Of a DNA stretch of 51,404 bases, positions 5,899 through 27,925 are shown one piece after another; within the stretch, counting starts at the first letter, position 1; each line of letters begins with the position of its first letter. Origin of the DNA: an uncultured Candidatus Poseidoniales archaeon (lineage in GTDB: Archaea > Thermoplasmatota > Poseidoniia > Poseidoniales > Thalassarchaeaceae). Under the pieces are notes generated by a model. It was given only the letters and a program-made list of their open reading frames with translations, did no database searches and was not told where the DNA came from. The stretch is taken from assembly GCA_902514485.1 (NCBI GenBank), contig CABXQY010000002.1, forward strand, positions 1 through 51,404. The letters are read 5' to 3'. A program made the translations under genes and the position numbers.

Positions 5899-5916
5899 TG
5901 AGGAAAAATAGACGCA

Positions 5917-6477
5917 CTAAAAAAAGTCTATTCCAGTACCGTGACTGAATTGTTCCATCTTCCATTCACCGACTAAGTATTGCAATTCTATTTTAGAATC
6001 CTCTTTATTATTTTTAGTATATTGTAACTCAATATCTATTGTATAGTTTTCCCAAACAGATTCGCCAATTATTATTAGTTCTAAAGCATCACCAGAAACT
6101 GAACTATGTGCAGGAAGAGAAGATTTATTGAATGTAGTTCTATCTATCTCAATATTATCTGAATCTATAAACCGAATGATTAGAGTTAAGTCACTGATAT
6201 CTCTACTTCCATCATTATCAATCTGAGTTAGTATCACATGGCCTGAACTACTCTGGATATAAACAACATCAATTGTTACCTTTTCATATGGAACAACCCA
6301 AGTTAAAGCTACGAAAGTGGCAGCAAATAGCATTAGAGCCACGAATGACACTAGAATTACTCTCAATGGAGATATACGATCCATTGAATCTTCTAATCTA
6401 ACTAAAACCTCATGCGCAAACTCTTCATCAAGAGTTTCCTCTACTTCTTGATTACGTGATTTCTCAAGCAAGCCCAT
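5917..6477 (-). CDS. Small single-pass membrane protein, translationally coupled to the upstream giant ORF
   Basis: 186-aa ORF. Its ATG (6475-6477) directly abuts the TGA (6478-6480) of the upstream gene, reading TGAATG on the coding strand. It has one TM (VILVSFVALMLFAATFVALTWVV) and a ~120-aa ectodomain. No family was recognised. Confidence 0.6.
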   Translation of the reverse strand: MGLLEKSRNQEVEETLDEEFAHEVLVRLEDSMDRISPLRVILVSFVALMLFAATFVALTWVVPYEKVTIDVVYIQSSSGHVILTQIDNDGSRDISDLTLIIRFIDSDNIEIDRTTFNKSSLPAHSSVSGDALELIIIGESVWENYTIDIELQYTKNNKEDSKIELQYLVGEWKMEQFSHGTGIDFF

Positions 6478-15530: not shown

Positions 15531-16015
15531 ACGTCATATAAAATATCCATGAATTCAATTTGAATCATAGGGTCTTCAATGAGACAGTATCGGTTATACA
15601 AACACAAAATAATACAATAACCCTACAAGAACTCCAATATCTATAGTAACAAACAATATTTTCATTGGCAAAGGAGCAATTTTCCAAAAATGACCTAATC
15701 CTTTATTTTCTTCACTCATATTATGTCGAAATCAATAGAAGTATTAATTGTACCCCTGTTGAAAATCAAGGATAGCGTAATTAATGGAAATTACTGAGTT
15801 TTAGCTGTTTAACCTAATAATGGCGTAACACTCATCACTGTAATAGCGAAAGATGCGTAGAAGCCAATTAGTATTGTTAGTATGTGTCCTGCGTGCATTA
15901 TTATACGTCGTAATGATTCATTAATGAATGCCTGTTTACTTTTGTATTTTTGACTTAAATATACTTGTATCTTTTCGCACAATTTTGAAATTTAATTTTC
16001 TTAATTTGTGTTTTT

Positions 16016-16041
16016 TGGTCCGCGCTCCCGGACTTGAACCG
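16016..16041. repeat. att copy 1: 26-nt direct repeat identical to the 3' end of tRNA-Tyr (antisense)
   Basis: TGGTCCGCGCTCCCGGACTTGAACCG is identical to 19846-19871 and 27822-27847. Identity with copy 2 extends over 39 nt (16011-16049 = 19841-19879). Confidence 0.9.
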
Positions 16042-16171
16042 AAGTCCGGCAGGTAAGGAGGCATTTCTCTTACTGAGGGAGATATCTACACAGTATTTGG
16101 AAGATATTCGTAAAGGTAAAACTGGAACTGTAAAGCAGCTGCTGACTTTGCTTTCAGGGGTGAAACAATGA
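16016..16171 (+). pseudogene. Relic integrase C-terminal fragment, int(C)-like and AT-rich
   Basis: The frame entering the repeat as WSALPDLN continues RSPAGKEAFLLLREISTQYLEDIRKGKTGTVKQLLTLLSGVKQ to the TGA at 16169-16171. It has the same length as the tail at 19870-19998 and 23 of 43 residues are identical. No matching int(N) lies upstream of the next att copy. Confidence 0.7.
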
Positions 16172-16174
16172 CAT

Positions 16175-18979
16175 TTATTCAGTTTCATTTGTGTCATTGA
16201 GAACCCATTCAAAAAATGTCTCTAAACTAGGAAGGAGAGATGCACCGGAATCAGTCAATTTGTACACAACTGTCGGAGGTACAGTCTCAAAATCTGTTCT
16301 TTCTACTAGATTATGGTCCTCTAATTCACCCAGTCTTCTTGTTAGTGTGGTAGAAGAGGTATCAACTCTATTTTTTAATTCTGTAAATCGTATTGGATTT
16401 TCTTCTGAATGCAATGTATGAATAATTTGAACCATTTTTGATCTAGAAAGAAGTGTCAATAGTTCATCTGCTTCAACATCTTGTTTCATTATTATGGAAT
16501 CTAATCGTGACTTGGGGGATCTTATTGCAGCCGTACCGACTAGAACCAATACCATAGCGAACACTATTATCGCTCCAAAGATTGCACTGCTTTGACCTAA
16601 AATAACTGAAGGTCCACTGCCATCAACATTAGAGCTATCATCCTGTAAAGGTGTATCTTCAACTGGAGTTTCTATGGTTTTATCTACTGTTTCTTCCACA
16701 GGTTCTTCCACAGGTTCTTCCACAGGTTCTTCCACAGGTTCTTCCACAGGTTCTTCCACAGGTTCTTCCACAGGTTCTTCCACAGGTTCTTCCACTGGCT
16801 CCTCCACAGGTTCTTCCACTGGCTCCTCCACAGGTTCTTCCACTGGTTCTTCTACAGGTTCTTCTTCTGTTGGCATCAGTATTTTATCGATAATATAAAT
16901 CACACCATTTTCTACTCCTTGAGAATAAAGAATCTTTGCCTCATTAACGAAAATATTACCTTCACAATCATTTGTAATGGTTATCGGAAACGAATCCGTA
17001 GTTTCCATGTCGAACTCTGTAGGTGTGCATTCATCAGAGAATGATAATACCCAGTCAAATGAAATATGATTGAGAAGGATTTCAGACAATCCTTCGAGTT
17101 TCTGGAGACTATCATAATCGTCAAGATCTATTCCAGCTGCAGCAAATGCTTCATCTGTTGGAGCAAATATTGTCATCCCCATCTGAGGACTATTCTCTAC
17201 ATTAATATCGTCCATCAACATGGTCATTCCCAAAGCATCCATTAAATCTCCAAATTCTCCATCATTCTCTAGGTTGGATGGGATATCAAATCTAGGATTG
17301 AACCTTGGCTCATCATTATTCGGTGGCGTGAAATTAAAGCTTGAAGGAATTAGAACGCTATCAATGACTTGAATCATGCCGTTATCTGTAGCTGAAGAAA
17401 AAGAAGGCCAATCGGTAGTCTCGGAGAATCCATAAACTCGATTATCTGTATCAATGACATTAGCCTGATTAACTGTAACATTTCCTTGACAATCATTTGA
17501 AATTATGACGGTCTCTGTCCAAGAGCTGTAGTTAAATGGATCTGCATATTCTCCATTTTGCATTGGCGTCCAGTCTGTAGTGTAAGGCTGGCAATAAGGT
17601 TCGTATTCGCCACTCGAACTGTTGTAGGCCATTCCCATGTCCAATCCATATGGCCCTGCAAAAGTTACATGATAGAGCAAGACTTCTGTCAATACATCGA
17701 TCCCCTCTGGAGAATCAAAATCATCTAGATAAATGCCAGTGGCATCGAAAGCATCGTTGGTAGGAGCAAATACAGTATATCCCATCTGAGGAGTGTTTTC
17801 TGGACTAAGAACTTCTGTTAGATTAGTCATCTCTAAGGCTTGTAATAGCGTGCTAAAGTAGGGAGAATTTTGAAATGCCCACAAAACAGTATCGTGCTCA
17901 CTGATTCCATATTCATCTATCTCTAATTTACTCTGATCGTCATTTAACTCAAACCAATGTTCCCAGGAGTCTTCGGGGTATACAAAAGTATAGTCAAGGC
18001 AGTAATTTGCGTCCAAATCTGCTTCCAACCAGTCACCTCCTACTTCTGTAGCGTAGAATGCGTGCATTATGCAAATCTCTTCTGAGCCGCCTAGATAAGA
18101 CCATGAAGTGAGATCTTCATTTGTTCCAGCCGGAATGTATGATGTACCTTCTCCTTGGAAATATCCTAGAATGTTGCATCCCGAAGAATGAGCCATGCCT
18201 ATGTTATTTGCTGTTGAAACGGAAAAGCTAGCATCTTCTGCAGCACCTCCAAATCCATAATCACATAGCATTGATTGTACCGATATATCGAAAGCGGTTA
18301 CGTCTACAGATGTATCAATGGTCAGTACCATGGTTTCATTAGTTACATCACCAAAGCCGACGATCACTTCTGAGCTTGAATCCGATCCATCCACTACTTC
18401 TGAGTTCGCATATGGATTTTCTACCTCAGGTTCGCTTTCACCATCATCAAGTTCATACCATACATCATTCGGCCATTCAGTTTCATACCGAGTATAAGTC
18501 AGACAATCATTGGGATCAAAGTCTGCTTGTCGAGTTTCGAACTCCCCCTCAGTTAACATGACCGTATAGGACGCATTCCCGATGCATACCTCTGGGCTAT
18601 TAGATTGATAGTAGAAGGATGTGAGAGTATCATTACTACCTGAGGGGATCCATCTTTCTCCTTGCGCCCCGTAATAGTATCCTGAAGTAGAACATCCAGC
18701 ATAGAGGATGCTGACAAACAAATCATGTTCTTCAGAGAGTCCGCCCCATGATTGTACCCCACAATAAATAGACCCAGAATCCCAAACAAATGTTACGAAG
18801 TATGCATACACATCTACTGAGGTATCCATTGTTAGTACCATTGTATCATTAGTAACATCACCAAAACCAATAGTCACTTCTGAGTTTGAATTCGATTCAT
18901 CTACGTCAGCAGATACCTGGGATGCAGGAAGGGCAATCATCATTAAGCAAATTAATAGTACTCTCAATTGGGACATCAT
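16175..18979 (-). CDS. Type-I membrane protein: two N-terminal repeat modules + two FAS1 (fasciclin) domains + (EEPV)n linker + TM + cytoplasmic HxlR-type winged-helix DNA-binding domain
   Basis: 934-aa ORF with signal peptide LLICLMMIALPASQVSA. It has two paralogous modules (SEVTIGFGDVTNDTMVLTMDTSVDV and SEVIVGFGDVTNETMVLTIDTSVDV). FAS1 motifs occur twice (TVFAPTNDAFDATG..IQVIDSVLIP and TIFAPTDEAFAAAG..VIYIIDKILMP). After the TM (AIFGAIIVFAMVLVLVGTAAI), the last 115 aa carry an HxlR pattern: RFTELKNRV..SSTTLTRRLGELEDHNLVERTDFETVPPTVVYKLTDSGASL. Confidence 0.85.
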   Translation of the reverse strand: MMSQLRVLLICLMMIALPASQVSADVDESNSNSEVTIGFGDVTNDTMVLTMDTSVDVYAYFVTFVWDSGSIYCGVQSWGGLSEEHDLFVSILYAGCSTSGYYYGAQGERWIPSGSNDTLTSFYYQSNSPEVCIGNASYTVMLTEGEFETRQADFDPNDCLTYTRYETEWPNDVWYELDDGESEPEVENPYANSEVVDGSDSSSEVIVGFGDVTNETMVLTIDTSVDVTAFDISVQSMLCDYGFGGAAEDASFSVSTANNIGMAHSSGCNILGYFQGEGTSYIPAGTNEDLTSWSYLGGSEEICIMHAFYATEVGGDWLEADLDANYCLDYTFVYPEDSWEHWFELNDDQSKLEIDEYGISEHDTVLWAFQNSPYFSTLLQALEMTNLTEVLSPENTPQMGYTVFAPTNDAFDATGIYLDDFDSPEGIDVLTEVLLYHVTFAGPYGLDMGMAYNSSSGEYEPYCQPYTTDWTPMQNGEYADPFNYSSWTETVIISNDCQGNVTVNQANVIDTDNRVYGFSETTDWPSFSSATDNGMIQVIDSVLIPSSFNFTPPNNDEPRFNPRFDIPSNLENDGEFGDLMDALGMTMLMDDINVENSPQMGMTIFAPTDEAFAAAGIDLDDYDSLQKLEGLSEILLNHISFDWVLSFSDECTPTEFDMETTDSFPITITNDCEGNIFVNEAKILYSQGVENGVIYIIDKILMPTEEEPVEEPVEEPVEEPVEEPVEEPVEEPVEEPVEEPVEEPVEEPVEEPVEEPVEEPVEETVDKTIETPVEDTPLQDDSSNVDGSGPSVILGQSSAIFGAIIVFAMVLVLVGTAAIRSPKSRLDSIIMKQDVEADELLTLLSRSKMVQIIHTLHSEENPIRFTELKNRVDTSSTTLTRRLGELEDHNLVERTDFETVPPTVVYKLTDSGASLLPSLETFFEWVLNDTNETE
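16691..16870. repeat. 12-nt tandem repeat (about 15 units) encoding (EEPV)n within the FAS1-HxlR gene
   Basis: TTCTTCCACAGG is repeated head-to-tail, with a few CACTGGCTCC variants near the 3' side. On the coding (minus) strand it gives EEPVEEPVEEPV... Confidence 0.9.
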
Positions 18980-19292
18980 AACCTATCTCATCTACTTACC
19001 CCATATAAAGAACCGTTTTCATAGTAACAGACTCGTTACTGCCCTAGTAACATACCCGTAACCATTAAAATTTTATCAAAAAGTCATATTCTAGAGAAAT
19101 ATTTCAATTTCATGGAAATAATTTATCTCATAGTATGTCTTTAGTTTTCGGAAAAATTATCTGCTCGATTGAGCGCCCACAAGAGGTGTACTCAGCGATT
19201 TGGCCAATAGATATTGAGGTGTGAATGACATTTGCTCAATGATCGTTGATAAATAAACAAGTCTCTTTAAGCGAAAGTGTGAAGCCAAATAC

Positions 19293-19754
19293 ATGGATTT
19301 GTATGACTTTTCTTTCTTTTTCTCTACAATGTGGGTTGGACCTTTTTGGTTTGCGATGTTGTTATTCCCTGAACATGAAATGACTAAAAAAGCCCTCAAA
19401 GGTCCTTGGTTTTTCCTCGGACCACTAATTGTTTGGTGGCTAGTGACCATCGCTAATCCACAAGCAATGGTTGACTTAGCTAAAGATGCAGCAAATCCAA
19501 ATGCAATCCTTGACGGATTAGCTGCGATTATGGGCAGTCGACCCGGAGCTTCTGCAGCATGGGCTCACATGGTTGCTGGTGACATCTTCGTCACACGGTG
19601 GATCTGGCAGCGCTGCCTCAAGTATGACACTCCTCGTTGGATTGCTGCAACTTCGGTTTTCTTTGGCGTCATGCTGATGCCTATTGGATTAGCAATGTGT
19701 GCAATCCTAGTTAGAGATAAACAAGAAACCTCAGCGGCGCCAATTGAAGTCTAA
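19293..19754 (+). CDS. ABA4-like / DUF4281-like membrane protein
   Basis: 153-aa ORF with an ATG start and four hydrophobic segments. AAWAHMVAGDIFVTRWIW resembles the W-x-H-x(3)-x-D-x-F-V-x-RWI signature I associate with the ABA4-like family. This is a motif-level call. Confidence 0.55.
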   Translation: MDLYDFSFFFSTMWVGPFWFAMLLFPEHEMTKKALKGPWFFLGPLIVWWLVTIANPQAMVDLAKDAANPNAILDGLAAIMGSRPGASAAWAHMVAGDIFVTRWIWQRCLKYDTPRWIAATSVFFGVMLMPIGLAMCAILVRDKQETSAAPIEV

Positions 19755-19845
19755 GATTTCGATATAAATAGCCCCACCACACCTGTAACGCACTTGCCAG
19801 ATTTTATTGCAATAAAATCCTAAAGTAGAGATTATGATGATTTTT

Positions 19846-19871
19846 TGGTCCGCGCTCCCGGACTTGAACCG
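19846..19871. repeat. att copy 2 (attL of the 8-kb element)
   Basis: TGGTCCGCGCTCCCGGACTTGAACCG is identical to 27822-27847. Confidence 0.9.
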
Positions 19872-20001
19872 AAGTCCGGTACCAGATGAGGCGTTCGTGC
19901 TCCTGAGGGAGTTGTCACGACAGTGCCTGGAGGAAATCCAGAGGGGCAGAACTGCAACTACTAGGCAGCTGCTCTCTATGCTTGCGGAGGTGAGAGGATG
20001 A
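19846..20001 (+). other. int: int(C): detached 3' end of the element integrase gene
   Basis: It reads WSALPDLN|RSPVPDEAFVLLRELSRQCLEEIQRGRTATTRQLLSMLAEVRG, with the TGA at 19999-20001. The codon usage is GC-rich like int(N). Joining base 27821 to base 19846 gives one continuous ORF. Confidence 0.8.
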
Positions 20002-20054
20002 CCTCAAACTTGGCAAGGAATTTCTTGGCAAAACATACGATCTGTGAGATAATA

Positions 20055-20122
20055 TGGTCAACCATAGAAGGTAACCATGGTTATTTTTCATCTCATGGTT
20101 GTCAGGTTGCAAACAACCATGG
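20055..20122. promoter_or_regulatory. Cluster of four (C)AACCAT(GG) half-sites, a candidate operator or iteron
   Basis: The copies are CAACCAT at 20059-20065, the perfect palindrome TAACCATGGTTA at 20072-20083, and the inverted pair CATGGTTG (20094-20101) / CAACCATG (20114-20121) with a 12-nt spacer. The cluster lies between the int(C) stop and the RBS (GAGGTGA, 20133-20139) and ATG of the next ORF. Confidence 0.4.
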
Positions 20123-20143
20123 AATAATTTTCGAGGTGATTGT

Positions 20144-20896
20144 ATGATACGCTTCAATCCGGATACTGAAAGGAAGTTGAAAGAAGATTTGGCAAATGTT
20201 GGCAAAGCAAACCAGGGTTACAACATCTATGCTACCGTCAAAGGTTCGGCCAATCATCGAAGGATAGGAACCTTGGATTCGCAAAGAACGGCGATAACCT
20301 TCGATGGTACGAACAACCTTGCACCCATCATCAAGAAAGCGGAGTTGGAAGAAGGTGCTGTTGTTGGGGATGTTGCACTGGTCCCAATCCCGGTGGAGAC
20401 TATCCAATCCGCAGCAGGAAGGCTGAGCGAGACCAGGCGTGGCAAGGCAAGGAGTAACCTACTATCATCCATCAAGTCCCTAATCCAAAGAGGCGTGAAG
20501 ACGAATCCGACCAAGGACCCACTCAGGGTGATTGAGGAGAAGGACAGGGAGATCGATCATCTGAGGAGGATCATCAACGCCAACAACGGGCTGTATGCAG
20601 ACCAAATCGCGAGGGGGATGATGATTCCAAGCGTGGATGACTACCCATTCGATCCGAAGAAGCTCGTTCGCCTCGCCGATGGGTTCGATGGGGTGGCAGT
20701 TGAGATGGAGAGAAACAAGCTGAGGATTTACTTCGTAGAGGGAAACTATGCAGGTGAGTCAGGCATTCCCTCCATGACGGGCAGGCAGAGGGAGATGCGC
20801 AGGGCAATCAACCGTGGATGGGTGGAGGTCAGGCTCTGCCATCTGATATTGCATTCTGATGGTAGTCATGAATGGGAAATCACGGAGGAGCGATAA
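20144..20896 (+). CDS. Hypothetical protein (element-borne, GC-rich)
   Basis: The ATG at 20144 is preceded by GAGGTGA 4 nt upstream. It encodes 250 aa (MIRFNPDTERKLKEDL...). The composition is GC-rich like the integrase, and no motif was recognised. The ORF-track start at 20099 lacks an RBS. Confidence 0.6.
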   Translation: MIRFNPDTERKLKEDLANVGKANQGYNIYATVKGSANHRRIGTLDSQRTAITFDGTNNLAPIIKKAELEEGAVVGDVALVPIPVETIQSAAGRLSETRRGKARSNLLSSIKSLIQRGVKTNPTKDPLRVIEEKDREIDHLRRIINANNGLYADQIARGMMIPSVDDYPFDPKKLVRLADGFDGVAVEMERNKLRIYFVEGNYAGESGIPSMTGRQREMRRAINRGWVEVRLCHLILHSDGSHEWEITEER

Positions 20897-20940
20897 TTTG
20901 GTTAATTTGATAGCCATCAGGCGTTTAGAATTTGAATAAC

Positions 20941-22935
20941 ATGGATGGGGATAAAGTTGATTCCTATGAAAAAATCCCAATGGGATATTGGAAAAATCCC
21001 GACAACCATCTACTATGGTTTGAAGATTTTAGACGTCATTATGAATTAACCACATTCGAGAGTTTATACACTATTAATCAGAAGATGATTCGAGATTTTA
21101 ATGGAATCACATTAGTAAAAGAATATTATAAATCAATAATAAATTTGGTGAAATCGCTATATCCTGAATATGAATGGAAATCCTACAAATTCCCAAGACG
21201 GGCCAATGGTTATTGGGAGATTGAACGTCATCGTATAGAATGGTTTGAAGACTTTAGAAAGCACTATAATTTGGGATCATACAACAGCCTCTATGATATT
21301 AATTCTAAAATGATTGATGATTATTATGGTAAGACATTGAGAAATAATTACTACAAATCAATATTTATCATGGTACAATCACTTTGTCCTGAATTCGAAT
21401 GGAAATTTTACAAATTTCGTTATCTCAAAGGGCACTGGGGGGAGATAGAAAATCAAAAGTTATGGTTTGAGGACCTCCGTGATTTTTACGGTTTAACAAC
21501 AGTTGAGGATATTTATTCCCTAAATTTGAGGATGATTACTGATTTTTATGGGATCACATTAGTTAAGGAATATTATGGATCAATCCTGAATATGGTTGAA
21601 TCAATCTGTCCTGAATACGAATGGAAATTTTACAAATTTAGAGGTTCGAAGGGGTACTGGAGCGATCTTGAAAACCAAAGAATATGGTTTGAAGATTTAA
21701 GGGAGAACTACAATCTAACAACATCTGAGAGTCTTTACCAGATTAATAGTAAAATGATAAATGAATTCTATGGTGGTAATATTTGGAATTTCTACTCTAA
21801 AATACCTGAATTAGTTATGGCTCTATGCCCTAATCATGATTGGAAATTCTACAGATTTAGAGGTTCGCAGGGACACTGGAGTGATATTGAAAACCAGAAA
21901 TTATGGTTTAATGATCTAAGAGAACACTATGGGTTTGATTCAAACGAGGACTTGTACGATCTTACTGTGTCCAAAATTTCAGATTTCTATGGGATTACTT
22001 GTGTTGTTGCCCTCTATGACGGATCCCCGAGTGAATTAGTGCGAGCTTTGATCCCTGAATACGATTGGAAAATCTACAAATTTTCGAATACACCTCAGGG
22101 GTACTGGGACGATCGGAAAAACCTTCAATCATGGTTTGAGGACATGAGGAGGCATTATGGGTTTAACAAAAATGAGGACCTGTATAACATAAACCTGAAG
22201 ATGATTTTGGATTTCCATGGTAGGACTCCAATTTCAAAGTTTAACGATTCAAAAATAAATCTCATTAGACATCTAATCCCAGAATTTGATTGGAAGGAAT
22301 ACAAATTTGTTCAAACGAGGAAGAATTATTGGGATGATATCGAGAACCAGAAATCATGGTTCAGAGACTTCAGAGAACACTATGGATTGGATACATACGA
22401 GAGCCTTTACGATGTCAGTTCAAAGATGATAAGCGACTACTATGGAAGTGGGTTACTGACCAGGACAAAAACAAATTACGGAGGAAGCCCGTCTTTATTC
22501 GTCCCAACTATGTGTCCAGAGTATGACTGGGACCTTTCTAAATTCGCCAGTAACAGAAAAACGCAGAAATCCCTATTCAAAATTCTAAAGCAGAAGTTTC
22601 CAGATGCGATATGGGAATACAGGACCGAGGTTCGTTGGGATTTTAGGAACAAGATAGGGTACGATATTTTTGTTCCCTCAATGAATCTGGCCTTTGAGGG
22701 ACAGGGCCATCAACACTACATTCCAATAGAGATGTGGGGAGGTAGTGATGCTTTAACAAAGCAAAAACAAAGGGATGAGCAAAAGTCAGATTTGGCTCAG
22801 GAACTGGGGATAAGATTGGTTATCGTTCCTTTCTGTGATCTGGATCCTGAATTACCCAAATGGCAATCCAGCTGGGAGTCATTAGTTGAAATTTGCAAAT
22901 TACAGGGAATAAATCTGAGCTTGAATGCTCTGTGA
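20941..22935 (+). CDS. Seven tandem ~75-aa repeats fused to a C-terminal Vsr/DUF559-like (PD-(D/E)xK-type) nuclease domain
   Basis: The ORF-track start at 20932 is TTG; the first ATG is at 20941. The repeats span 20980-22560, with consensus GYWxDxENQKxWFEDLRxHYGLxTxESLYxINxKMIxDFYGxTL..YY.S...LV.SLCPEYEWKFYKF. The C-terminal 124 aa read SLFKILKQKFPD..GYDIFVPSMNLAFEGQGHQHY..QRDEQKSDLAQELGIRLVIVPF. This matches the D..(V/F)E.(D/Q)G..H...D..R...L...G..V.RF layout of Vsr/DUF559-type endonucleases. Confidence 0.75.
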   Translation: MDGDKVDSYEKIPMGYWKNPDNHLLWFEDFRRHYELTTFESLYTINQKMIRDFNGITLVKEYYKSIINLVKSLYPEYEWKSYKFPRRANGYWEIERHRIEWFEDFRKHYNLGSYNSLYDINSKMIDDYYGKTLRNNYYKSIFIMVQSLCPEFEWKFYKFRYLKGHWGEIENQKLWFEDLRDFYGLTTVEDIYSLNLRMITDFYGITLVKEYYGSILNMVESICPEYEWKFYKFRGSKGYWSDLENQRIWFEDLRENYNLTTSESLYQINSKMINEFYGGNIWNFYSKIPELVMALCPNHDWKFYRFRGSQGHWSDIENQKLWFNDLREHYGFDSNEDLYDLTVSKISDFYGITCVVALYDGSPSELVRALIPEYDWKIYKFSNTPQGYWDDRKNLQSWFEDMRRHYGFNKNEDLYNINLKMILDFHGRTPISKFNDSKINLIRHLIPEFDWKEYKFVQTRKNYWDDIENQKSWFRDFREHYGLDTYESLYDVSSKMISDYYGSGLLTRTKTNYGGSPSLFVPTMCPEYDWDLSKFASNRKTQKSLFKILKQKFPDAIWEYRTEVRWDFRNKIGYDIFVPSMNLAFEGQGHQHYIPIEMWGGSDALTKQKQRDEQKSDLAQELGIRLVIVPFCDLDPELPKWQSSWESLVEICKLQGINLSLNAL

Positions 22936-23104
22936 TTAGATTGTGTCCCAGAACACCGGGCTCCACTCAAGCTCAGCCGAGGTCAAACCCATGATTCCAC
23001 ATTTGCAGCACCTCTAACTCTGAAGGCAGCTCCCGTTGCACAGCCGTTGAAGGAATTACCGATACCCCCTACGCCAATGAGTTCAAAGAATGATTTACCT
23101 TATT

Positions 23105-25156
23105 TTAGTACTTCATCAACTTCTTTAGATTCCTAGAATAACGCCTAACATCAAACATGGGTAATGAATTCCTTAACCATGAAGTAAATTCAGATGGGAC
23201 TGGAATAATGATTTTTTCACCTCTTCTTTTGGGGCCTATACTTTCTGGGATTAGATCCATCTGTCTGTTTACTTCATATCTATCTTCGTTATTTGTAAAG
23301 GATAAGTACAGTTCTTTCTGTGGAGTGACTCGCCAATTAACATCACCGTTGTTTATCATAGATAGCCAATCAAGACCATTTCCATCGACGACTTTTTCGA
23401 GGGGTTGATTAGGAAAGAAATCAGGTATTTCGATACCGGCAATCTCGTACAGTTCCGTCATAACTAATCGACCTATGTTCATACAATCAGTATGGTCATA
23501 TTTATCGTCAATTCCATTGTTAAGCAATTCTAAATATTTCTTTGAAAAATATAAAAATATCGGGTTTTCTTCACTCATTATTTTAGAAACATGTTTGATA
23601 TTAGCTGTATTATCTTCGAATCTAGCATCCATAACGACTTCTTTCATTCTACCTTTCAGTTGTCCTTGTGGTATTCTTTTATTCGAGGTTACAATTAGTT
23701 GACTATGATTTTTTCCTGATTCCCACCAATTATCCCAATAGGAACGTACAATTTGATCCATGTATCTCTTACCCCATTTCGAATCACTTATATCATCATA
23801 AATTATTGGGAAAAGAGAACTCCAGGTTAGTAAATTCTTAACTTTTGTAGCAGAGAAATCATCATCATCATATGCTGCAACTTTGTTGTTGCTTCCTGTC
23901 AATAGTCTACTACAATATTGTAATAGATATGTTTTCCCATTTTTTGTGTTACCATAAATAGCTAGAGGTTTTGGTCCACGCTGATATTCCCAACCTAGGA
24001 TTCTTTTGCCTTGTTTCATGTATGCGTGATGGAAAGGAGATGTCAAGAAATACAACATCACTTCGTATATACTCATCTTAGCAAAACGAGGATTCTTACA
24101 ACTAGCTCTATCTATAGTCTCGACATATGAGTGAATTCCATTGATTCCTTTTTGGATTTCAGCAACATCATAGTTAGATGCTGTTCTGTTAATTGTCTCA
24201 CTACCGACCCTAAGTGATACAAAGTCATCATTCACGGTCATTAATGGGAATGTGCTAACTCTAGTATCAAGAAATGGACGTGTTGTAGCCCTAATTTTTC
24301 TACCCTCTCTTTGGACACCTGCTGGTGCTAAAATTCTTACAACTTCTTCTAAAACTGCTTCATTGGCCTCTGTTGTCAATTCGGTCATGATGATATCAGG
24401 ATCTGTGGAATCATTCAGTGCTCTTTCTTGGAACTCGTGAATGATAGCATGTACTTTAGTTACATCTGCTGATGATGATGAACCAGTGTAAGATACCCAG
24501 CGCTCAACAACTTCAATATCTGGAGCGTCATCTTTGTTTAGTAGGTCTACCAATTCGTCTAAATATTCCTCAGAATTTGAATGATACCAGTAATAGGTCT
24601 CACATAATTCCAGATATTCATCAGAATTTTTATATTCTCCTTGGATATTACGCACTCGTACTTGATTAGATTGTTTTCCAGATATACCTGAACCTCTTGA
24701 AGTCAGATTAGCTGTACCAAAGATATCTGAAAACTCGTTATCTTTCTCTGCTAATATCCACTTTTCATGGAAGGTTCGATTATTTTTTGGTACTCTAACA
24801 GTTAAACGGCCTTCTTCTATTAGTTTGGCAAGTCTAAGGAAAACCTCGGGTTCTGTGCTAGATCGATTCTTTGTAACAACTGAATCTCCAACAATAATTT
24901 CTGCTTTTTGAATGCCATATAAATCAAATAAATCAACAATGAAGTCTACTCTTTGGACATACATTACCATTCTAATTTCATTAAATCCTTCGATATGAGT
25001 CTGCAATGGTCGCTGCGGAGTTACTCTGAATATCTTTGATTCGAGAATCTCAAACTCAGGTTTTTTTGGTTTAATATCAGGGCTGAGATCACCCCAAAGT
25101 TTTCTCTCGTTTGTTGTACTGGTTTCTTCCTCAATTTTTTCTAATTTATTTTCCAT
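23105..25156 (-). CDS. PLD-family (single HKD) nuclease domain fused to a D5/P4-like superfamily-3 helicase; putative element replication protein
   Basis: 683-aa ORF. The HKD motif is FHEKWILAEKD..FGTANLTSRG (aa 129-155). Walker A is AIYGNTKNGKTYLL (aa 399-412) and Walker B is LFPIIYDD (aa 448-455). SF3 motif C is QLIVTSNKRIP (aa 486-496). Confidence 0.75.
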   Translation of the reverse strand: MENKLEKIEEETSTTNERKLWGDLSPDIKPKKPEFEILESKIFRVTPQRPLQTHIEGFNEIRMVMYVQRVDFIVDLFDLYGIQKAEIIVGDSVVTKNRSSTEPEVFLRLAKLIEEGRLTVRVPKNNRTFHEKWILAEKDNEFSDIFGTANLTSRGSGISGKQSNQVRVRNIQGEYKNSDEYLELCETYYWYHSNSEEYLDELVDLLNKDDAPDIEVVERWVSYTGSSSSADVTKVHAIIHEFQERALNDSTDPDIIMTELTTEANEAVLEEVVRILAPAGVQREGRKIRATTRPFLDTRVSTFPLMTVNDDFVSLRVGSETINRTASNYDVAEIQKGINGIHSYVETIDRASCKNPRFAKMSIYEVMLYFLTSPFHHAYMKQGKRILGWEYQRGPKPLAIYGNTKNGKTYLLQYCSRLLTGSNNKVAAYDDDDFSATKVKNLLTWSSLFPIIYDDISDSKWGKRYMDQIVRSYWDNWWESGKNHSQLIVTSNKRIPQGQLKGRMKEVVMDARFEDNTANIKHVSKIMSEENPIFLYFSKKYLELLNNGIDDKYDHTDCMNIGRLVMTELYEIAGIEIPDFFPNQPLEKVVDGNGLDWLSMINNGDVNWRVTPQKELYLSFTNNEDRYEVNRQMDLIPESIGPKRRGEKIIIPVPSEFTSWLRNSLPMFDVRRYSRNLKKLMKY

Positions 25157-25494
25157 GTTCTAATCACCTTGGCTTCTTGCGTCGAATCCCGAGGTAGCCA
25201 ACATCGGGCTTTGTTGGCCGCATATGTCGGGATATAAAGATTAAGTAAAGCAAGAAATTACTAATCCCTTTAGGGGATTATACTCAAAACGTGTTTCAGA
25301 ATATTCTTGTTTCTTCCTTAATTACACCTAATCGGAAGTGGTACCCATGTGGCTACTCCTAGAAATTATGTCATCTGATACTATATTCAGAAGGAACTAA
25401 TGAATGGGAGATAGTTGAGAATTCCAAAAATCCCATATAAACGTACTTCTCAAAGTACAAATTTAGCAGATATTAAAGTTATAATTTTAACACT

Positions 25495-26202
25495 TTAATT
25501 TTGTATCCTTTTGGTGCTTGGGGAGCCTATACCTTTAACTCCATCCGTTCTCAAGATTTCTCTTAGCTTTTCGGCTTCTTCTTGTTCCAATTGCCTTTGC
25601 TCAGTTTTAGCCTTCTTATCGGCTTCTTCTTCCTTCTGTTTCCGTTGGATAATAGTATCTACTCCTTGTTCGGAAATCCCATCAATGATCATTTTAGTTG
25701 CTTCAACATTATTCAGATATTTCTCGACTAAGCGTTTAGCCTCCTCAATTGTTGTATCTTTTTTGCCCACAGACTCCATCAGAGTGTAATGTTTCTTATT
25801 TTCCAAAATAAACTCACAATCCTCGATTGAAAGTTTATCTTTGTGATTTGGCTCTAAGAGAAATCGTTTAATTGCATCGATGGTTGATTTGTTACTAACG
25901 AGTTTCTTGAAAAATCCATTTGCATATGCTAAGTCGTCAAAGTTTGTTTTTACCGGATTTGCTAGTTGATGTACTTCCTCGGCTATTTTTTGATTTTTAC
26001 AGAAATCTCTGAATGGCTTCTCCTTAGCGGCCTTATCTTTGGCTCTCTTTTCTTCTTCTTTTCTCCGATAAATATGTGCATGCACATGACAATAACCACC
26101 GTCATTTTTAGTTGCAGGAAGTTTGCAAGGTCTTTTGGCTTCGAAATGCTGAACAATGTGCTTGCAGGCGGATTTTGGATCTCTTCGTCGCCGCGGAGTC
26201 AC
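25495..26202 (-). CDS. Basic protein with an N-terminal Cys/His cluster and K/E-rich coiled-coil segments (putative DNA-binding)
   Basis: 235-aa ORF with a GTG start. The N-terminus reads RRRRDPKSACKHIVQHFEAKRPCKLPATKNDGGYCHVHAH (C-x12-C-x11-C-x-H-x-H). Charged stretches follow: KEEEKRAKDKAAKEK and QRKQKEEEADKKAKTEQRQLEQEEAEKLRE. Confidence 0.55.
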   Translation of the reverse strand: MTPRRRRDPKSACKHIVQHFEAKRPCKLPATKNDGGYCHVHAHIYRRKEEEKRAKDKAAKEKPFRDFCKNQKIAEEVHQLANPVKTNFDDLAYANGFFKKLVSNKSTIDAIKRFLLEPNHKDKLSIEDCEFILENKKHYTLMESVGKKDTTIEEAKRLVEKYLNNVEATKMIIDGISEQGVDTIIQRKQKEEEADKKAKTEQRQLEQEEAEKLREILRTDGVKGIGSPSTKRIQN

Positions 26203-26576
26203 AAAACTCTACGCTAGGATATGCGTTAGAAAGTTATCTCCTTTGAATATCTGTACTTACTCATTTCAATTACCTCGGAGTAATTCGGTAGTCATATCTC
26301 TCAGCATTACCTTAAATTCATCTGATCTCTCTTTCTCTCCTTGCTCAAATAAATAATATTCAGATCAATGGAATGGTATTTTTCGATATAAAAAATGATA
26401 ATTAATGAGTGGATATTAGTTGATAATTGGATTTTTTAGTAGCACTACACATTGTAGAAGAAGTAATTGAGAATCCCAACGGCATTGTCGTTTGAAGCAA
26501 TAGGCATTCATGTTCAAACTCTGCATCATAGTACTGACAATAACCTTTCATACCTTCTCTTCGCTTCCAATATTCC

Positions 26577-27914
26577 ATGCCAGAGATACAGCCATGTAAT
26601 ACAGCCAGCCAAGATGAATACCCATACTGGGTCTCCGATGGAATGGACCAAGGAGAACCCTCGATTTACGATAATGTGATAATCTGGCTCAGAAGCCCTA
26701 GAAGATGGAAGGACAGGAATCTGAAGCGCTACAAAAACATCAGGTATTCGGCTCAGAAGTTCAGGCATACCCTAAGCAGCTTTACTCCCCACGACTTGAG
26801 AGACGATCAGAGGTATATCGAGTTCATCGAGTCATTACAGAGTGAGATTGAGAGTTCCGATCTGGCGCAAACGACTCTGGACGGGTACCTCGGCTATCTG
26901 ACTGGCAAGGTGTTGAAAAATGGAGAGGTCAATCCCCGGATAGTCGAGGAAATCAAAACCCAAATTTTTCTCATTAAGAAGGGGCTGAAGAGGAGAGAGG
27001 TTTTCCATAGGGGAATCGAGGAGGACGAGATCGTCGAGTTCATGAGGTCCCTAGACGAGATGTGCGAGAACCCAGAGACCGCCCCGAACCTCTCGAGGAT
27101 TGCGAACCCAAATTCCTCGAACGCTAAGTCAAAGCGGACTAGCCACCACCTGCTACTAGCACTGAGGGCGTATGCGTACCTGACTCTGGTAAGCGCAGGC
27201 AGGGCAAATTCTATCCGCCGAATCAGGATTTCAGAAGTTAATGAGGACTTTTTCATCAGAGAAATAAGCAAGATGAGAACTTACTCGGAGGCGGTCCGCA
27301 CCAGCATGCCCAAGTGGGTGTTCCAGAGGGTCGAGCCTTACCTAGAATACTGCAGGGAGAACCACCCGGATGCCATATTCCTGTTCAGCGAAGACGAGAA
27401 CAAAAGAGGGAGGGGGACAATCAACCCAAAGACTCTCCAAGAAATAAAGAAAGGTGCGATGAAGAATATCGGAATGGAGCCGACGAGCGCTGGCGGACTC
27501 TATAGGCTTCACGACCTGAGAACGGTTTGGTGCGATTGGATGTACAAGGGAGGCGCCTCAGTGGAGCAGATGTCCGTGTTCCTAGGCCACTCCTCCCCCA
27601 AAGTGACCACCAAGTACTACTTCGCACCGAAACACAAGGAGAGAATGAGACAGGAAGGATGGGAAGCAGGTATGAAAGGACTTGAGGCTCTCTTACAGAT
27701 ACGTGAGAATGCGGATAGGAAAATAGAGGATTTGTACAGGCAACTGCATGAAATCGGCTACTTCTCAGATGGGAAAGGAGGAGGAGTATACCCTGACTGC
27801 TGGGATGAAGTTGATGATAATTGGTCCGCGCTCCCGGACTTGAACCGGGGACCCCCTGATGGCTGCCTACAACCATGTGTTTCCAGTCTACAGTCAGGTG
27901 CTCTAGCCAACTGA
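26577..27914 (+). CDS. int: Tyrosine recombinase/integrase, int(N) form; the last 30 codons are read from the antisense strand of tRNA-Tyr
   Basis: 445-aa ORF. The catalytic boxes are LVSAGRANSIRRIRISE (Arg), LHDLRTVWCDW (HxxR) and FLGHSSPKVTTKYYF (His and the nucleophilic Tyr). The frame crosses the att core as WSALPDLN at 27822-27845 and stops at 27912-27914 inside the tRNA gene. Confidence 0.9.
   Translation: MPEIQPCNTASQDEYPYWVSDGMDQGEPSIYDNVIIWLRSPRRWKDRNLKRYKNIRYSAQKFRHTLSSFTPHDLRDDQRYIEFIESLQSEIESSDLAQTTLDGYLGYLTGKVLKNGEVNPRIVEEIKTQIFLIKKGLKRREVFHRGIEEDEIVEFMRSLDEMCENPETAPNLSRIANPNSSNAKSKRTSHHLLLALRAYAYLTLVSAGRANSIRRIRISEVNEDFFIREISKMRTYSEAVRTSMPKWVFQRVEPYLEYCRENHPDAIFLFSEDENKRGRGTINPKTLQEIKKGAMKNIGMEPTSAGGLYRLHDLRTVWCDWMYKGGASVEQMSVFLGHSSPKVTTKYYFAPKHKERMRQEGWEAGMKGLEALLQIRENADRKIEDLYRQLHEIGYFSDGKGGGVYPDCWDEVDDNWSALPDLNRGPPDGCLQPCVSSLQSGALAN
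27822..27847. repeat. att copy 3 (attR), within the intact tRNA-Tyr
   Basis: TGGTCCGCGCTCCCGGACTTGAACCG is the antisense of the T-loop, 3' T-stem, 3' acceptor strand, A73 and CCA. Confidence 0.9.
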
Positions 27915-27925
27915 GCTAAGCGCGG
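27822..27925 (-). tRNA. tRNA-Tyr (anticodon GUA) with a 27-nt intron at the canonical 37/38 position and an encoded CCA
   Basis: The minus strand folds by hand. The acceptor is CCGCGCT/AGCGCGG and the D arm is GCTC-AGTTGGCTA-GAGC. The anticodon stem is CCTGA/TCAGG and the loop is CTGTAG|intron|A, with anticodon GTA at 27889-27891. The intron is 27861-27887. The variable loop is GGGTC, the T arm is CCCGG-TTCAAGT-CCGGG, the discriminator is A, and CCA follows. The C1-G72 pair is the archaeal/eukaryal tRNA-Tyr identity pair. Confidence 0.85.

What the first reader, a model, noticed from the sequence alone, without database searches (positions are those of the whole stretch)
20941..22935. Seven tandem ~75-aa repeats fused to a Vsr/DUF559-like endonuclease domain: a repeat-array nuclease
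Residues 17-543 (20980-22560) are seven head-to-tail repeats of 73-79 aa. They share a strongly conserved aromatic and acidic scaffold (GYW.D.ENQK.WFEDLR.HYGL.T.ESLY.IN.KMI.DFYG.TL..YY.S...LV.SLCPEYEWKFYKF), with variable positions between the conserved ones. The last 124 aa carry the layout of Vsr/DUF559-type PD-(D/E)xK endonucleases (GYDIFVPSMNLAFEGQGHQHY ... QRDEQKSDLAQELGIRLVIVPF). I do not recognise the repeat as a named family. An array of helical repeats joined to a nuclease suggests modular nucleic-acid recognition. The function could be homing-endonuclease-like, restriction-like, or element-versus-element defence. The gene is the most AT-rich part of the element.
Basis: partly seen in the sequence, partly recalled or inferred. 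Interest (0 to 1): 0.75.

Follow-up and report, generated by a model that had tools for sequence, protein, structure and literature searches.

The report
Helical repeat array fused to Vsr-type nuclease
An archaeal genomic island carries an intact gene for seven copies of an undescribed 75-residue five-helix domain joined to a Vsr-fold nuclease related to phage homing endonucleases, most likely a mobile site-specific DNA cutter whose repeat array chooses the target.

Summary
ORF 20941-22935 (664 aa) holds seven tandem 73-80-aa repeats, and the weakest repeat pair scores z=22.6 against shuffles. A 123-aa C-terminal domain follows.

AlphaFold models are confident (pLDDT 91 for the full protein, 94 for one repeat). 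Each repeat is an autonomous five-helix domain with no significant PDB match and no Pfam, NCBIfam or PHROG model. The C-terminus has the Vsr fold (1vsr, probability 0.98). All family-invariant catalytic-type residues are present: D575, E586, H592, D612, K615. The domain is homologous to phage intron-borne "VSR homing endonucleases".

The repeat defines a large unnamed family of 9,580 cluster representatives, with arrays of 4-25 units. It is fused to three different Vsr/DUF559-type nucleases and occurs in giant-virus-like, bacterial and archaeal contigs.

The gene sits in an integrase island bounded by 27-nt tRNA-derived direct repeats. A second archaeal genome carries a copy that is 96-100% identical at both ends of the module, whereas host genes are 84-89% identical. 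Its central repeats are replaced, giving 9 repeats instead of 7.

Best reading: a mobile, homing-type site-specific DNA endonuclease with a new modular recognition array. Target binding and cleavage are untested.

The parts
20941..22935 (+). Whole ORF: 664 aa plus stop (an alternative in-frame TTG start lies at 20932). It encodes the repeat-array nuclease.
   Evidence: AF2 mean pLDDT 90.9
20983..21207 (+). Repeat 1 (aa 15-89), a five-helix unit
   Evidence: It is 100% identical in protein to repeat 1 of L004.
21208..21429 (+). Repeat 2 (aa 90-163)
   Evidence: 99% identical to L004 repeat 2
21430..21651 (+). Repeat 3 (aa 164-237)
   Evidence: 99% identical to L004 repeat 3. The 98%-identity DNA tract ends at about 21701.
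21652..21870 (+). Repeat 4 (aa 238-310). It has no counterpart in the otherwise near-identical L004 allele.
   Evidence: at most 56% aa and 59-62% DNA identity to any L004 repeat
21871..22098 (+). Repeat 5 (aa 311-386), a diverged counterpart of L004 repeat 7
   Evidence: 71% aa, 72.8% DNA
22099..22323 (+). Repeat 6 (aa 387-461), a diverged counterpart of L004 repeat 8
   Evidence: 61% aa, 68% DNA
22324..22563 (+). Repeat 7 (aa 462-541). It is the nuclease-proximal repeat and has a 5-residue insertion. It is conserved across the four archaeal-clade proteins.
   Evidence: 96% aa identity to L004 repeat 9
22564..22932 (+). C-terminal Vsr-fold nuclease domain (aa 542-664) of the 'EYQGxQH' subtype. 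Invariant or near-invariant residues are Q542, D575, E586, Q588, G589, H592, G600, D612 and K615.
22663..22785 (+). Catalytic-core codons: D575 (22663), E586 (22696), Q588 (22702), H592 (22714), D612 (22774), K615 (22783)
   Evidence: These are invariant columns of A3.
20099..20896 (+). Upstream 265-aa ORF of unknown function (GC 0.506, pI 9.1). It is co-transferred with the nuclease gene and is 99.2% identical in L004.
19845..19871 (.). Left att-like copy of the 27-nt direct repeat TTGGTCCGCGCTCCCGGACTTGAACCG (left island boundary)
27821..27847 (.). Right att-like copy of the same 27-nt repeat, lying inside the tRNA 3' end (right island boundary)
27825..27925 (-). tRNA gene with an intron of about 30 nt. 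The anticodon loop reads GUA (Tyr). It is the integration target.
   Evidence: ARAGORN missed it.
26577..27914 (+). Tyrosine integrase of the island (GC 0.505)
23105..25156 (-). Island cargo: a 683-aa protein with a P-loop (GNTKNGKT) and a PLD-like HEKW motif. Function is unknown.
   Evidence: weak DrmC hit, E 0.006

Best explanation
The gene encodes a two-part, site-specific DNA endonuclease of the free-standing homing (selfish or competitive) type.

Shown:
- The C-terminal 123 aa fold as a Vsr-type alpha-beta-beta-beta-alpha-beta nuclease core.
- This core keeps every residue that is invariant in its subfamily: D575, E586, H592, D612 and K615, plus Q542 and Q588. These sit where Vsr has E25, D51, T63/H64, H69 and D97.
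- The domain is homologous to the nuclease of phage proteins that split essential genes as intron-borne homing endonucleases.
- The N-terminal 527 aa are seven autonomous five-helix domains joined by short aromatic linkers (W.FYKF...GYW).

Inferred:
- The array lies along DNA and supplies most of the binding energy and target choice.
- It thereby places the nuclease, possibly as a dimer as in I-Bth0305I, at a long and rare target.
- Gain, loss or replacement of central repeats changes the target.

The gene travels as a two-gene module with the upstream 265-aa ORF, inside an integrase island inserted at a tRNA-Tyr gene of a marine euryarchaeon. It has moved between lineages recently.

Its likely biological role is self-propagation, or exclusion of competing elements or viruses that carry the uninterrupted target.
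For: Nuclease:
- The AF2 topology is alpha-beta-beta-beta-alpha-beta with pLDDT about 80-92.
- Foldseek matches 1vsr (probability 0.98, TM 0.56 on the target) and 1cw0 (0.97).
- BFVD matches phage 'homing endonuclease' proteins and giant-virus 'endonuclease-like' proteins at probability 1.0.
- PHROG 559 matches at 5e-17 and PHROG 9084 'homing endonuclease' at 1e-10.
- tblastn finds 232 phage records. One is Enterococcus phage 113 ORF171, 'group I intron-associated VSR homing endonuclease', which splits the terminase large subunit.
- Seven invariant columns are all kept in the window protein.
- The motif spacing parallels Vsr.
- hhalign aligns QRDEQK..ELGIRLVIV to Vsr ERDRRD..ELGWRVLIV.

Array as a portable targeting module:
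- A single repeat folds alone (pLDDT 94.3, pTM 0.81).
- The same repeat array is fused to three different Vsr/DUF559-type nuclease subtypes. It also occurs alone, with 1-2 repeats, and as arrays of up to 25 repeats.
- Family arrays are mostly basic (median pI 8.8).
- Variable positions are surface-exposed and rich in K/R.
- Homologous phage nucleases use other modular N-terminal DNA-binding arrays, namely CapR and treble-clef Zn fingers and NUMODs (PMC3239194).

Mobility and retargeting:
- The island is bounded by an exact 27-nt tRNA-derived repeat and carries an integrase.
- ORF265 through repeat 3 is 98-100% identical to L004, and repeat 7 plus the nuclease are 96-97% identical. Host genes are 84-89% identical.
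- The central repeats are replaced, giving 7 against 9 repeats.
- The island sits differently relative to the ABA4-like gene in the two genomes.
- There are 11 synonymous against 2 nonsynonymous differences across the N-terminus to repeat 3, which indicates constraint.
Against: - No binding or cleavage data exist, and no target site could be inferred.
- The repeat has no significant similarity to any known DNA-binding fold. The best Foldseek hits are SAM domains at E>3, and SAM domains are mainly protein-interaction modules.
- The window array is net acidic (pI 5.9). The host proteome is also acidic (median pI 5.3), so this is weak evidence.
- The gene is not inside an intron or intein, and its island has its own integrase. 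Homing is therefore not required for its spread.
- The residue-level match to Vsr rests on manual motif alignment and a statistically weak hhalign (probability 1.7%).
- Sequence searches do not link the domain to I-Bth0305I.
- Vsr's Zn-binding Cys/His cluster is absent.
- pTM of 0.60 leaves the overall shape of the array uncertain.
Confidence: 0.5

Rival explanations
1. It is a defence or exclusion nuclease that works for the island or host, in a restriction-like way. The array recognises foreign DNA (viral or rival elements), and the nuclease destroys it. It may act together with the neighbouring PLD/P-loop protein or the upstream 265-aa ORF.
For: - The gene is cargo of an integrative island, next to a protein with a P-loop and a weak DrmC/PLD signal.
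- The central repeats turn over rapidly, as expected in an arms race.
- Homing endonucleases have been proposed to act in virus-versus-virus competition (PMC5871332).
Against: - PADLOC gives no hit for the nuclease, ORF265, the 235-aa ORF or the integrase.
- No methylase or other self-protection partner is recognisable.
- The same architecture is abundant inside giant-virus-like contigs, which fits a selfish or competitive gene better than host immunity.
- At the molecular level this rival overlaps the best explanation.
Confidence: 0.2
2. It is an RNA-binding or RNA-processing protein analogous to the RAP-domain helical-repeat proteins (FASTK, OPR, HPR). In those, a repeat array reads RNA and a Vsr-like C-terminal domain cleaves or anchors it.
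For: - The architecture is the same: helical repeats followed by a Vsr-fold C-terminal domain. RAP domains are best modelled on Vsr and 3r3p (PMC5449608).
- The top whole-chain Foldseek hits are helical proteins of the Toxoplasma and Tetrahymena mitoribosomes.
- DUF559-type family members give faint RAP hits (E 0.02-0.03).
Against: - Those Foldseek hits are not significant (E 0.03-0.8, TM about 0.1).
- The window protein gives no Pfam RAP hit even at E<=10.
- The closest homologs of its nuclease domain are phage DNA homing endonucleases.
- The 75-aa five-helix units are unlike the 35-40-aa hairpin repeats of HPR, OPR and PPR proteins.
Confidence: 0.12
3. The repeats are protein-protein interaction or oligomerisation modules (SAM-like), or a delivery scaffold. 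The nuclease is then a non-specific toxin or effector whose activity is controlled by partners, for example the co-transferred upstream ORF acting as an immunity or regulator protein.
For: - The only structural neighbours of the repeat, all weak, are SAM domains and SAM_TNK Pfam hits in 2 of 80 members.
- The window array is acidic.
- The gene is tightly co-inherited with ORF265.
Against: - The SAM similarity is not significant (E>3, probability at most 0.14).
- There is no secretion signal or trafficking domain, and N-terminal flanks are only 0-74 aa.
- In polymorphic toxins the C-terminal tip varies, whereas here the nuclease is conserved and the repeats vary.
- Most family arrays are basic.
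Confidence: 0.1
4. It is a decaying or inactive relic with no current function.
For: - The archaeal clade is very rare: four sequences in 5.8 billion.
- The island copy in L004 has lost its integrase.
Against: - The 664-codon ORF is intact here, and an 815-codon ORF is intact in L004.
- All invariant residues are kept.
- The synonymous to nonsynonymous ratio is 11:2 in the shared 5' part.
- The AF2 models are confident.
Confidence: 0.05

Closest known systems
Phage intron-associated 'VSR homing endonucleases' of the EYQGxQH nuclease subtype. Examples are Enterococcus phage 113 ORF171 (QVW54593.1) and PHROG 559 / 9084 / 34504 members in Herelleviridae, SPbeta-like and jumbo phages.
   Same: - The nuclease domain is homologous, with the same invariant D...E.QG.QH...GG...D..K motifs.
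- The nuclease is C-terminal.
- A modular N-terminal array precedes it.
   Different: - The phage proteins use CapR-homology and treble-clef Zn-finger modules or other N-terminal regions, and lack the 75-aa repeat.
- They sit in introns that split essential genes, whereas this gene is free-standing cargo of an archaeal integrative island.
- To my knowledge no member of this nuclease subtype has been characterised biochemically.
EDxHD family homing endonucleases (I-Bth0305I, PDB 3r3p; Taylor et al. 2011, PMC3239194)
   Same: - The domain order is the same: an N-terminal DNA-binding region followed by a C-terminal Vsr-fold nuclease.
- The composite catalytic motif is conserved in kind: D575, H592 and D612, with Q542 where E is expected.
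   Different: - Single-sequence and profile searches of the PDB detect no sequence relationship to 3r3p.
- The N-terminus is seven 75-aa five-helix repeats instead of two NUMOD/HTH motifs.
- The gene is not associated with an intron or intein.
E. coli Vsr (very short patch repair endonuclease; PDB 1vsr, 1cw0)
   Same: - The fold matches (Foldseek probability 0.97-0.98).
- Equivalents of D51, H69 and D97 occur at similar spacing.
   Different: - There is no Pfam Vsr hit.
- The Zn-binding Cys/His cluster and the intercalating Trp residues are absent.
- Vsr is a single-domain T:G mismatch nickase coupled to Dcm. This protein has a 527-aa repeat array.
RAP-domain helical-repeat RNA-binding proteins (FASTK/FASTKD, OPR-RAP, HPR-RAP; PMC5449608, PMC8190603, PMC6212722)
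   Same: The architectural logic is the same: an array of helical repeats followed by a Vsr-like PD-(D/E)xK-fold C-terminal domain.
   Different: - These are organellar RNA-binding proteins of eukaryotes.
- Their repeats are 35-40-aa helical hairpins.
- The Pfam RAP model does not match the window protein.
The unnamed family of 75-aa-repeat arrays found here in metagenomes (for example P0006, P0007 and P0008 on giant-virus-like contigs, and P0005 on a bacterial chromosome)
   Same: - The repeat unit is the same, matching the profile at 1e-20 to 1e-30 per unit.
- The array-plus-C-terminal-nuclease layout is the same.
   Different: - The family has no description in Pfam, NCBIfam, PHROGs or the searchable literature.
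- Most members are basic, whereas the window clade is acidic.
- Many carry a classical Vsr-type (ADGY..EFHGDYWHGNP) or DUF559-type nuclease instead.

Membership tests
Vsr-fold (PD-(D/E)xK-like) endonuclease superfamily | alpha-beta-beta-beta-alpha-beta core, and structural similarity to solved Vsr | tested here: met
   The AF2 secondary structure is H540-552, E559-566, E570-578, E583-587, H601-621, E625-629. Foldseek matches 1vsr at probability 0.98 (TM 0.56 on the target) and 1cw0 at probability 0.97.
Vsr-fold (PD-(D/E)xK-like) endonuclease superfamily | Metal-binding Asp on the first core strand (Vsr D51), plus His and Asp equivalents (H69, D97) | tested here: met
   D575, H592 and D612 are invariant in the subfamily alignment. 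Their spacing parallels Vsr. The D612 segment aligns to the Vsr D97 segment by hhalign, though with low probability. This is a motif-level alignment, not a structural superposition.
Vsr proper (Pfam PF03852; T:G mismatch nickase) | Match to the Vsr model, and the Zn-binding GCFWHxHxC / Cys cluster | tested here: not met
   There is no Pfam hit at E<=10. The window has GQGHQHY where Vsr has HGCFWHHHHC, so the Cys ligands are missing.
DUF559 (Pfam PF04480) | Match to the family model above the gathering score | tested here: not met
   The window protein gives no hit. Only the 'IELDGRQHF' subtype of array proteins passes (28.8 bits against a 20.6 cutoff), and only 2 of 80 members hit.
EDxHD homing endonucleases (I-Bth0305I) | Detectable sequence relationship to the family or to 3r3p | tested here: not met
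   phmmer and a profile hmmsearch against PDB sequences give no 3r3p hit at E<=10.
EDxHD homing endonucleases (I-Bth0305I) | Composite E-D-x-H-D catalytic motif | tested here: inconclusive
   D575, H592 and D612 are present. The position expected for E is Q542, which is Q in nearly all array proteins and E in the phage homolog.
EDxHD homing endonucleases (I-Bth0305I) | N-terminal NUMOD/HTH DNA-binding motifs, and residence in a group I intron or intein | tested here: not met
   The N-terminus is seven 75-aa repeats with no NUMOD Pfam hit. The gene is free-standing between ORF265 and a convergent 683-aa ORF.
Phage EYQGxQH-type VSR homing endonucleases (PHROG 559 / 9084) | Homologous nuclease domain with D...E.QG.QH...GG...D..K | tested here: met
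   PHROG 559 matches at 5e-17 and PHROG 9084 at 1e-10. tblastn to Enterococcus phage 113 ORF171 gives 38% identity and E 7e-10.
Homing endonucleases in general | Site-specific cleavage of the cognate 'empty' allele, and presence/absence polymorphism at a fixed locus | not testable with these tools
   Only two genomic contexts exist. They show recent transfer and different placement, but no empty target site could be defined.
RAP-domain helical-repeat proteins (FASTK/OPR/HPR) | Match to Pfam RAP (PF08373), and 35-40-aa hairpin repeats | tested here: not met
   The window protein gives no RAP hit. The repeats are 75-aa five-helix domains.
TALE/PUF-like coded repeat arrays | Near-identical repeats that differ mainly at a few specificity residues | tested here: not met
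   The repeats are only 38-58% identical. High-entropy positions are spread over helices 1, 3, 4 and 5.
Unnamed 75-aa five-helix repeat family (this work) | Match of each unit to the repeat profile (G.W...N...Y..WL...LG...EDWY......G..LL..Y..S.....PE..W..W.F) | tested here: met
   Each of the seven units matches at 1e-26 to 1e-30. The profile finds 9,580 cluster representatives at E<=1e-3.
Known anti-phage defence systems (PADLOC) | Match to any PADLOC protein model | tested here: not met
   The nuclease and ORF265 give no hit. Only a weak DrmC hit (E 0.006) appears, in the neighbouring 683-aa protein.

The most novel reading that the evidence does not exclude
The 75-aa five-helix repeat is a new modular nucleic-acid-reading unit in which each repeat contacts a fixed stretch of DNA. 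Arrays of 4-25 units would then spell out long targets. Replacing central repeats would retarget the attached nuclease, as seen between the two near-identical archaeal alleles (7 against 9 repeats). This would be a natural, re-programmable recognition scaffold, widespread in giant viruses, bacteria and archaea, and distinct from zinc fingers, TALEs, PUF and PPR proteins.
Probability: 0.2. Interest if true: 0.9.

Novelty: new variant of a known kind. Interest (0 to 1): 0.62.

Why it matters
The nuclease half is ordinary: a Vsr-fold homing-type domain. The targeting half is a confidently folding domain with no structural or family assignment. It forms arrays of 4-25 units in thousands of proteins from giant viruses, bacteria and archaea, and it has been joined independently to three nuclease subtypes.

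If the array reads DNA, it would be a previously unrecognised class of modular DNA-recognition domain. The natural exchange of central repeats seen here would then be an example of retargeting, which is relevant to mobile-element biology, virus-virus competition and possibly genome engineering.

The finding also documents gene flow of a mostly giant-virus-associated selfish gene family into a tRNA-integrating island of marine Euryarchaeota.

Tried and rejected
- Tandem Repeats Finder on the DNA found nothing. The repeats are too diverged at nucleotide level, so I used protein-level analysis.
- Pfam, NCBIfam and PADLOC gave no usable hits on the protein. The weak PF25760 and phrog_3826 hits cover only helix 1 of one repeat.
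- PDB sequence searches found nothing. I tried the C-terminal domain, the phage homolog domain, the classical-Vsr-type tail, and profiles A1 and A3. The hits to de novo TIM barrels are low-complexity artefacts.
- Two word-index homolog searches were unproductive: the short C-terminal domain and the repeat profile.
- Single-protein and tight-alignment scans of GTDB genomes, IMG/VR and JGI metagenomes found no close relatives.
- hhalign of the nuclease profile against one Vsr sequence gave only a 27-column, low-probability match.
- Self-BLAST suppressed the internal HSPs, so I replaced it with a Smith-Waterman shuffle test.
- tblastn of the array against 50,697 phage records gave no match.
- Literature searches for DUF4046/PF13255 and for giant-virus Vsr repeat proteins found nothing.
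- I considered and rejected a polymorphic-toxin reading. There is no secretion or trafficking domain, and the variable part is the repeats, not the C-terminal tip.
- I considered net charge as evidence against DNA binding and rejected it, because the host proteome is acidic.
- I noticed that the Gly-rich loops between helices 1/2 and 3/4 might be helix-hairpin-helix-like. Foldseek gives no support for this, so I make no claim.
Full report
**1. The observation**

An intact ORF runs from ATG 20941 (or an in-frame TTG at 20932) to the stop ending at 22935 on the + strand, encoding 664 aa. Residues 15-541 are seven head-to-tail repeats of 73-80 aa. Mean pairwise identity is 46% at protein level and 57% at DNA level.

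Smith-Waterman scores of the 21 repeat pairs are 144-241. Composition-preserving shuffles give 26.7 +/- 5.2, so the weakest pair has z=22.6. Tandem Repeats Finder misses the array at DNA level. The repeat finder does detect 60-79% DNA similarity at 219-228-nt spacing.

The last 123 aa carry GYDIFVPSMNLAFEGQGHQHY ... QRDEQKSDLAQELGIRLVIVPF.

The AT-richness remark is only roughly right. The gene's GC is 0.365 and the neighbouring 683-aa ORF's is 0.356. The lowest kilobase in the whole window is 15-16 kb.

**2. The C-terminal domain is a Vsr-fold nuclease of a homing-endonuclease subtype**

No Pfam, NCBIfam or PDB sequence match exists. PHROG profiles do match strongly: phrog_559 at 5e-17 and phrog_9084 'homing endonuclease' at 1e-10.

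tblastn finds the domain in 232 phage records. In Enterococcus phage 113 it is the C-terminus of ORF171, annotated 'group I intron-associated VSR homing endonuclease'. That gene splits the terminase large subunit into two ORFs.

The AlphaFold2 model has mean pLDDT 90.9 and gives the domain an alpha-beta-beta-beta-alpha-beta topology. Foldseek matches E. coli Vsr: 1vsr at probability 0.98 (TM 0.56 on the target) and 1cw0 at 0.97. In the viral structure library it matches phage 'homing endonucleases' and giant-virus 'endonuclease-like' proteins at probability 1.0.

In an alignment of 17 domains of this subtype, the invariant columns are D, E, G, H, G, D and K, and Q is near-invariant at three positions. 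All are present in the window protein as D575, E586, G589, H592, G600, D612 and K615, plus Q542, Q588 and Q591.

Placed beside Vsr, D575, E586-x-Q588, H592 and D612 fall where Vsr has D51, T63-H64, H69 and D97, with nearly the same spacing. Q542 falls where Vsr has E25. hhalign aligns the QRDEQK...ELGIRLVIV segment to Vsr ERDRRD...ELGWRVLIV, but at low probability. This is therefore a motif-level argument backed by the fold match, not a structural superposition. The roles of the Vsr residues come from the I-Bth0305I paper (PMC3239194) and from my own knowledge of Vsr.

The domain is not a member of Pfam Vsr, DUF559 or RAP. It lacks Vsr's Zn-binding cysteines.

**3. The repeat is an autonomous five-helix domain with no known relative**

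In the full-length model each repeat forms five helices of about 14, 5, 6, 5 and 8 residues. A single repeat, modelled with a 49-sequence repeat alignment, folds on its own with pLDDT 94.3 and pTM 0.81.

Foldseek of that unit against the PDB gives nothing significant. The best hits are SAM domains at E>3, probability at most 0.14 and TM 0.34-0.42. The repeat profile finds no PDB sequence. Pfam and NCBIfam scans of 80 family members find no model covering the repeat. Full-text searches found no description of it.

Conserved positions are aromatic, Gly or Pro core positions: W3, Y/W12, L16, L20, W28, Y29, G41, P61, W65 and F70. High-entropy positions lie on the faces of helices 1, 3, 4 and 5 and are rich in K/R and polar residues. 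There is no TALE-like hypervariable pair.

**4. It belongs to a very large unnamed family**

An exhaustive profile search of 1.84 billion cluster representatives gave 9,580 proteins at E<=1e-3. Of these, 5,902 reach E<=1e-10 and 2,224 reach E<=1e-30. The listed top hits carry 4-25 repeats.

I inspected 80 members:
- Nearly all have a short N-terminal flank (0-74 aa) followed by the array.
- 47 have a C-terminal tail of at least 100 aa.
- 29 of those tails are of the window's EYQGxQH type.
- 7 are of the classical Vsr type (ADGY..EFHGDYWHGNP).
- 3 are of the DUF559 type (IELDGRQHF), which passes the Pfam DUF559 cutoff.

Array-only proteins also exist. P0005 lies on a bacterial chromosome beside ruvA and ruvC. 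Proteins with one or two repeats plus the nuclease occur on L015, and single-repeat proteins exist as well.

Three distant homologs lie on contigs with giant-virus-type neighbours. These include P9_TM, DUF5899 and DUF5757, a fused mRNA-capping enzyme and an HMG box. Assigning those Pfam families to Nucleocytoviricota rests on my own knowledge.

No annotated phage encodes the repeat. The homologous phage nucleases use CapR-homology or treble-clef Zn-finger arrays instead.

One repeat array joined to three nuclease subtypes, and one nuclease joined to several unrelated modular arrays, is the pattern expected of a portable targeting module. This is the main argument, by inference, that the array recognises nucleic acid.

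Family arrays are mostly basic: median pI is 8.8 and 66% are above 8. The window array has pI 5.9, but the host proteome here has a median pI of 5.3. The acidity therefore looks like host adaptation.

**5. Genomic setting and recent mobility**

The window is an archaeal chromosome fragment. It carries ribosomal L15e, FtsZ, and PKD and fasciclin surface proteins. Its closest relative is a 'Euryarchaeota archaeon' MAG.

An exact 27-nt direct repeat, TTGGTCCGCGCTCCCGGACTTGAACCG, occurs at 16015, 19845 and 27821. The last copy is the 3' end of an intron-containing tRNA at 27825-27925 on the minus strand (Rfam 56 bits). Its anticodon loop reads GUA, for Tyr.

The island at 19872-27820 carries:
- the 265-aa ORF
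- the repeat nuclease
- a 683-aa P-loop/PLD-like protein
- a 235-aa ORF
- a tyrosine integrase

In the related MAG (L004) the ABA4-like and FtsZ genes are adjacent. The nuclease module there lies beyond another att copy, so it is placed differently.

Host genes are 84-89% identical between the two genomes. The module shows a mosaic:

| Segment | DNA identity |
|---|---|
| ORF265 | 99.2% |
| Intergenic plus N-terminus | 100% |
| Repeats 1-3 | 97.9% |
| Repeat 7 | 97.4% |
| Nuclease | 96.1% |
| Repeat W5 vs L7 | 72.8% |
| Repeat W6 vs L8 | 68.0% |
| Repeat W4 | no counterpart (59-62%) |

L004 has three extra central repeats, and two of them are a recent duplication (83% aa). The L004 ORF is intact from the same ATG, giving 815 aa and 9 repeats.

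The gene has therefore moved recently between lineages, and its central repeats have been exchanged while both ends stayed fixed. Differences in the shared 5' part are 11 synonymous to 2 nonsynonymous, consistent with a functional gene.

The archaeal clade is very rare. It has four sequences, with none in GTDB representatives, IMG/VR or JGI metagenomes.

**6. Mechanism**

Shown:
- a Vsr-fold domain with all invariant residues
- homology to intron-borne phage homing endonucleases
- seven autonomous helical domains
- family-wide modular shuffling
- recent horizontal transfer with exchange of central repeats

Inferred:
- The array binds DNA along an extended target.
- It positions the nuclease, which may dimerise as I-Bth0305I does (PMC3239194).
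- Repeat turnover changes the target.
- The gene behaves as a selfish or competitive element. This parallels what has been proposed for homing endonucleases in giant-virus competition (PMC5871332).

Confidence is about 0.8 that this is a real nuclease of this fold and about 0.6 that the array binds nucleic acid. For the full statement it is about 0.5.

**7. Rivals**

- A defence or exclusion role for the island is the same chemistry with a different beneficiary. I put it at 0.2, and PADLOC gives no support.
- An RNA-directed, RAP-like role shares the architecture (PMC5449608). However, the Foldseek hits to mitoribosomal helical proteins are insignificant, and there is no RAP match.
- A SAM-like protein-interaction scaffold with a toxin-like nuclease rests only on insignificant SAM hits.
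- A decaying relic is contradicted by the intact ORFs and conserved residues.

**8. Novelty and verdict**

The kind is known: a modular binding region plus a Vsr-fold nuclease of homing type. The recognition module is new and defines a large unannotated family. The window adds an archaeal, island-borne clade with a natural repeat-swap polymorphism.

I rate it 'new variant of a known kind' with interest 0.62. The most novel reading not excluded is a new codable DNA-reading repeat, with probability about 0.2.

Noticed in passing
window 27825-27925 (-), with repeats at 16015-16041, 19845-19871 and 27821-27847: An intron-containing tRNA (anticodon loop reads GUA, Tyr) was missed by ARAGORN but found by Rfam at 56 bits. 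Its 3' 27 nt recur exactly twice upstream. This implies two stacked insertions at one tRNA: 16042-19844 and 19872-27820.
   Followed up: partly
window 26577-27914 (+): The tyrosine integrase ORF overlaps the 3' end of the tRNA on the opposite strand. It is GC-rich (0.505) against a host GC of about 0.39, as is the 265-aa ORF (0.506), while the cargo genes between them are AT-rich.
   Followed up: partly
window 23105-25156 (-): A 683-aa protein has a Walker-A-like GNTKNGKT motif and a PLD-like HEKW motif. It has no Pfam or PHROG hit and only a weak PADLOC DrmC hit (E 0.006). It could be a nuclease/NTPase of the island.
   Followed up: partly
window 20099-20896 (+): A basic 265-aa ORF with no family hit is 99.2% identical in the other MAG and always sits directly upstream of the nuclease gene. 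It may be a functional partner.
   Followed up: partly
window 16172-19199 (gene 16175-18979, -): A 934-aa protein combines fasciclin domains, a PT-repeat linker (a 12-nt tandem repeat of at least 15 copies at 16620-16888) and a C-terminal HxlR/MarR-type HTH. This is an unusual mix of a surface-type domain and a transcription-factor domain. The gene is absent from the related MAG.
   Followed up: no
L015 (SCLJ03000007.1) 589-9223: Five tandem ~2-kb paralogous units (67-74% identical, GC 0.30) each encode lysine-rich KEY.REYY.QNKDK repeats, 1-2 copies of the 75-aa repeat, and the window-type nuclease. The nuclease is split across two frames, by short introns or by decay. The source may be a eukaryotic genome.
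   Followed up: partly
L006 8001-9653 (P0005): A seven-repeat array without any nuclease domain is encoded on a bacterial chromosome, beside ruvA/ruvC and type II secretion or pilus genes. The array can therefore exist and presumably function on its own.
   Followed up: no
L001 537-3657 (Enterococcus phage 113): The terminase large subunit is split into two ORFs by the VSR homing endonuclease gene. That protein's N-terminus is three CapR-homology/treble-clef Zn-finger modules.
   Followed up: partly
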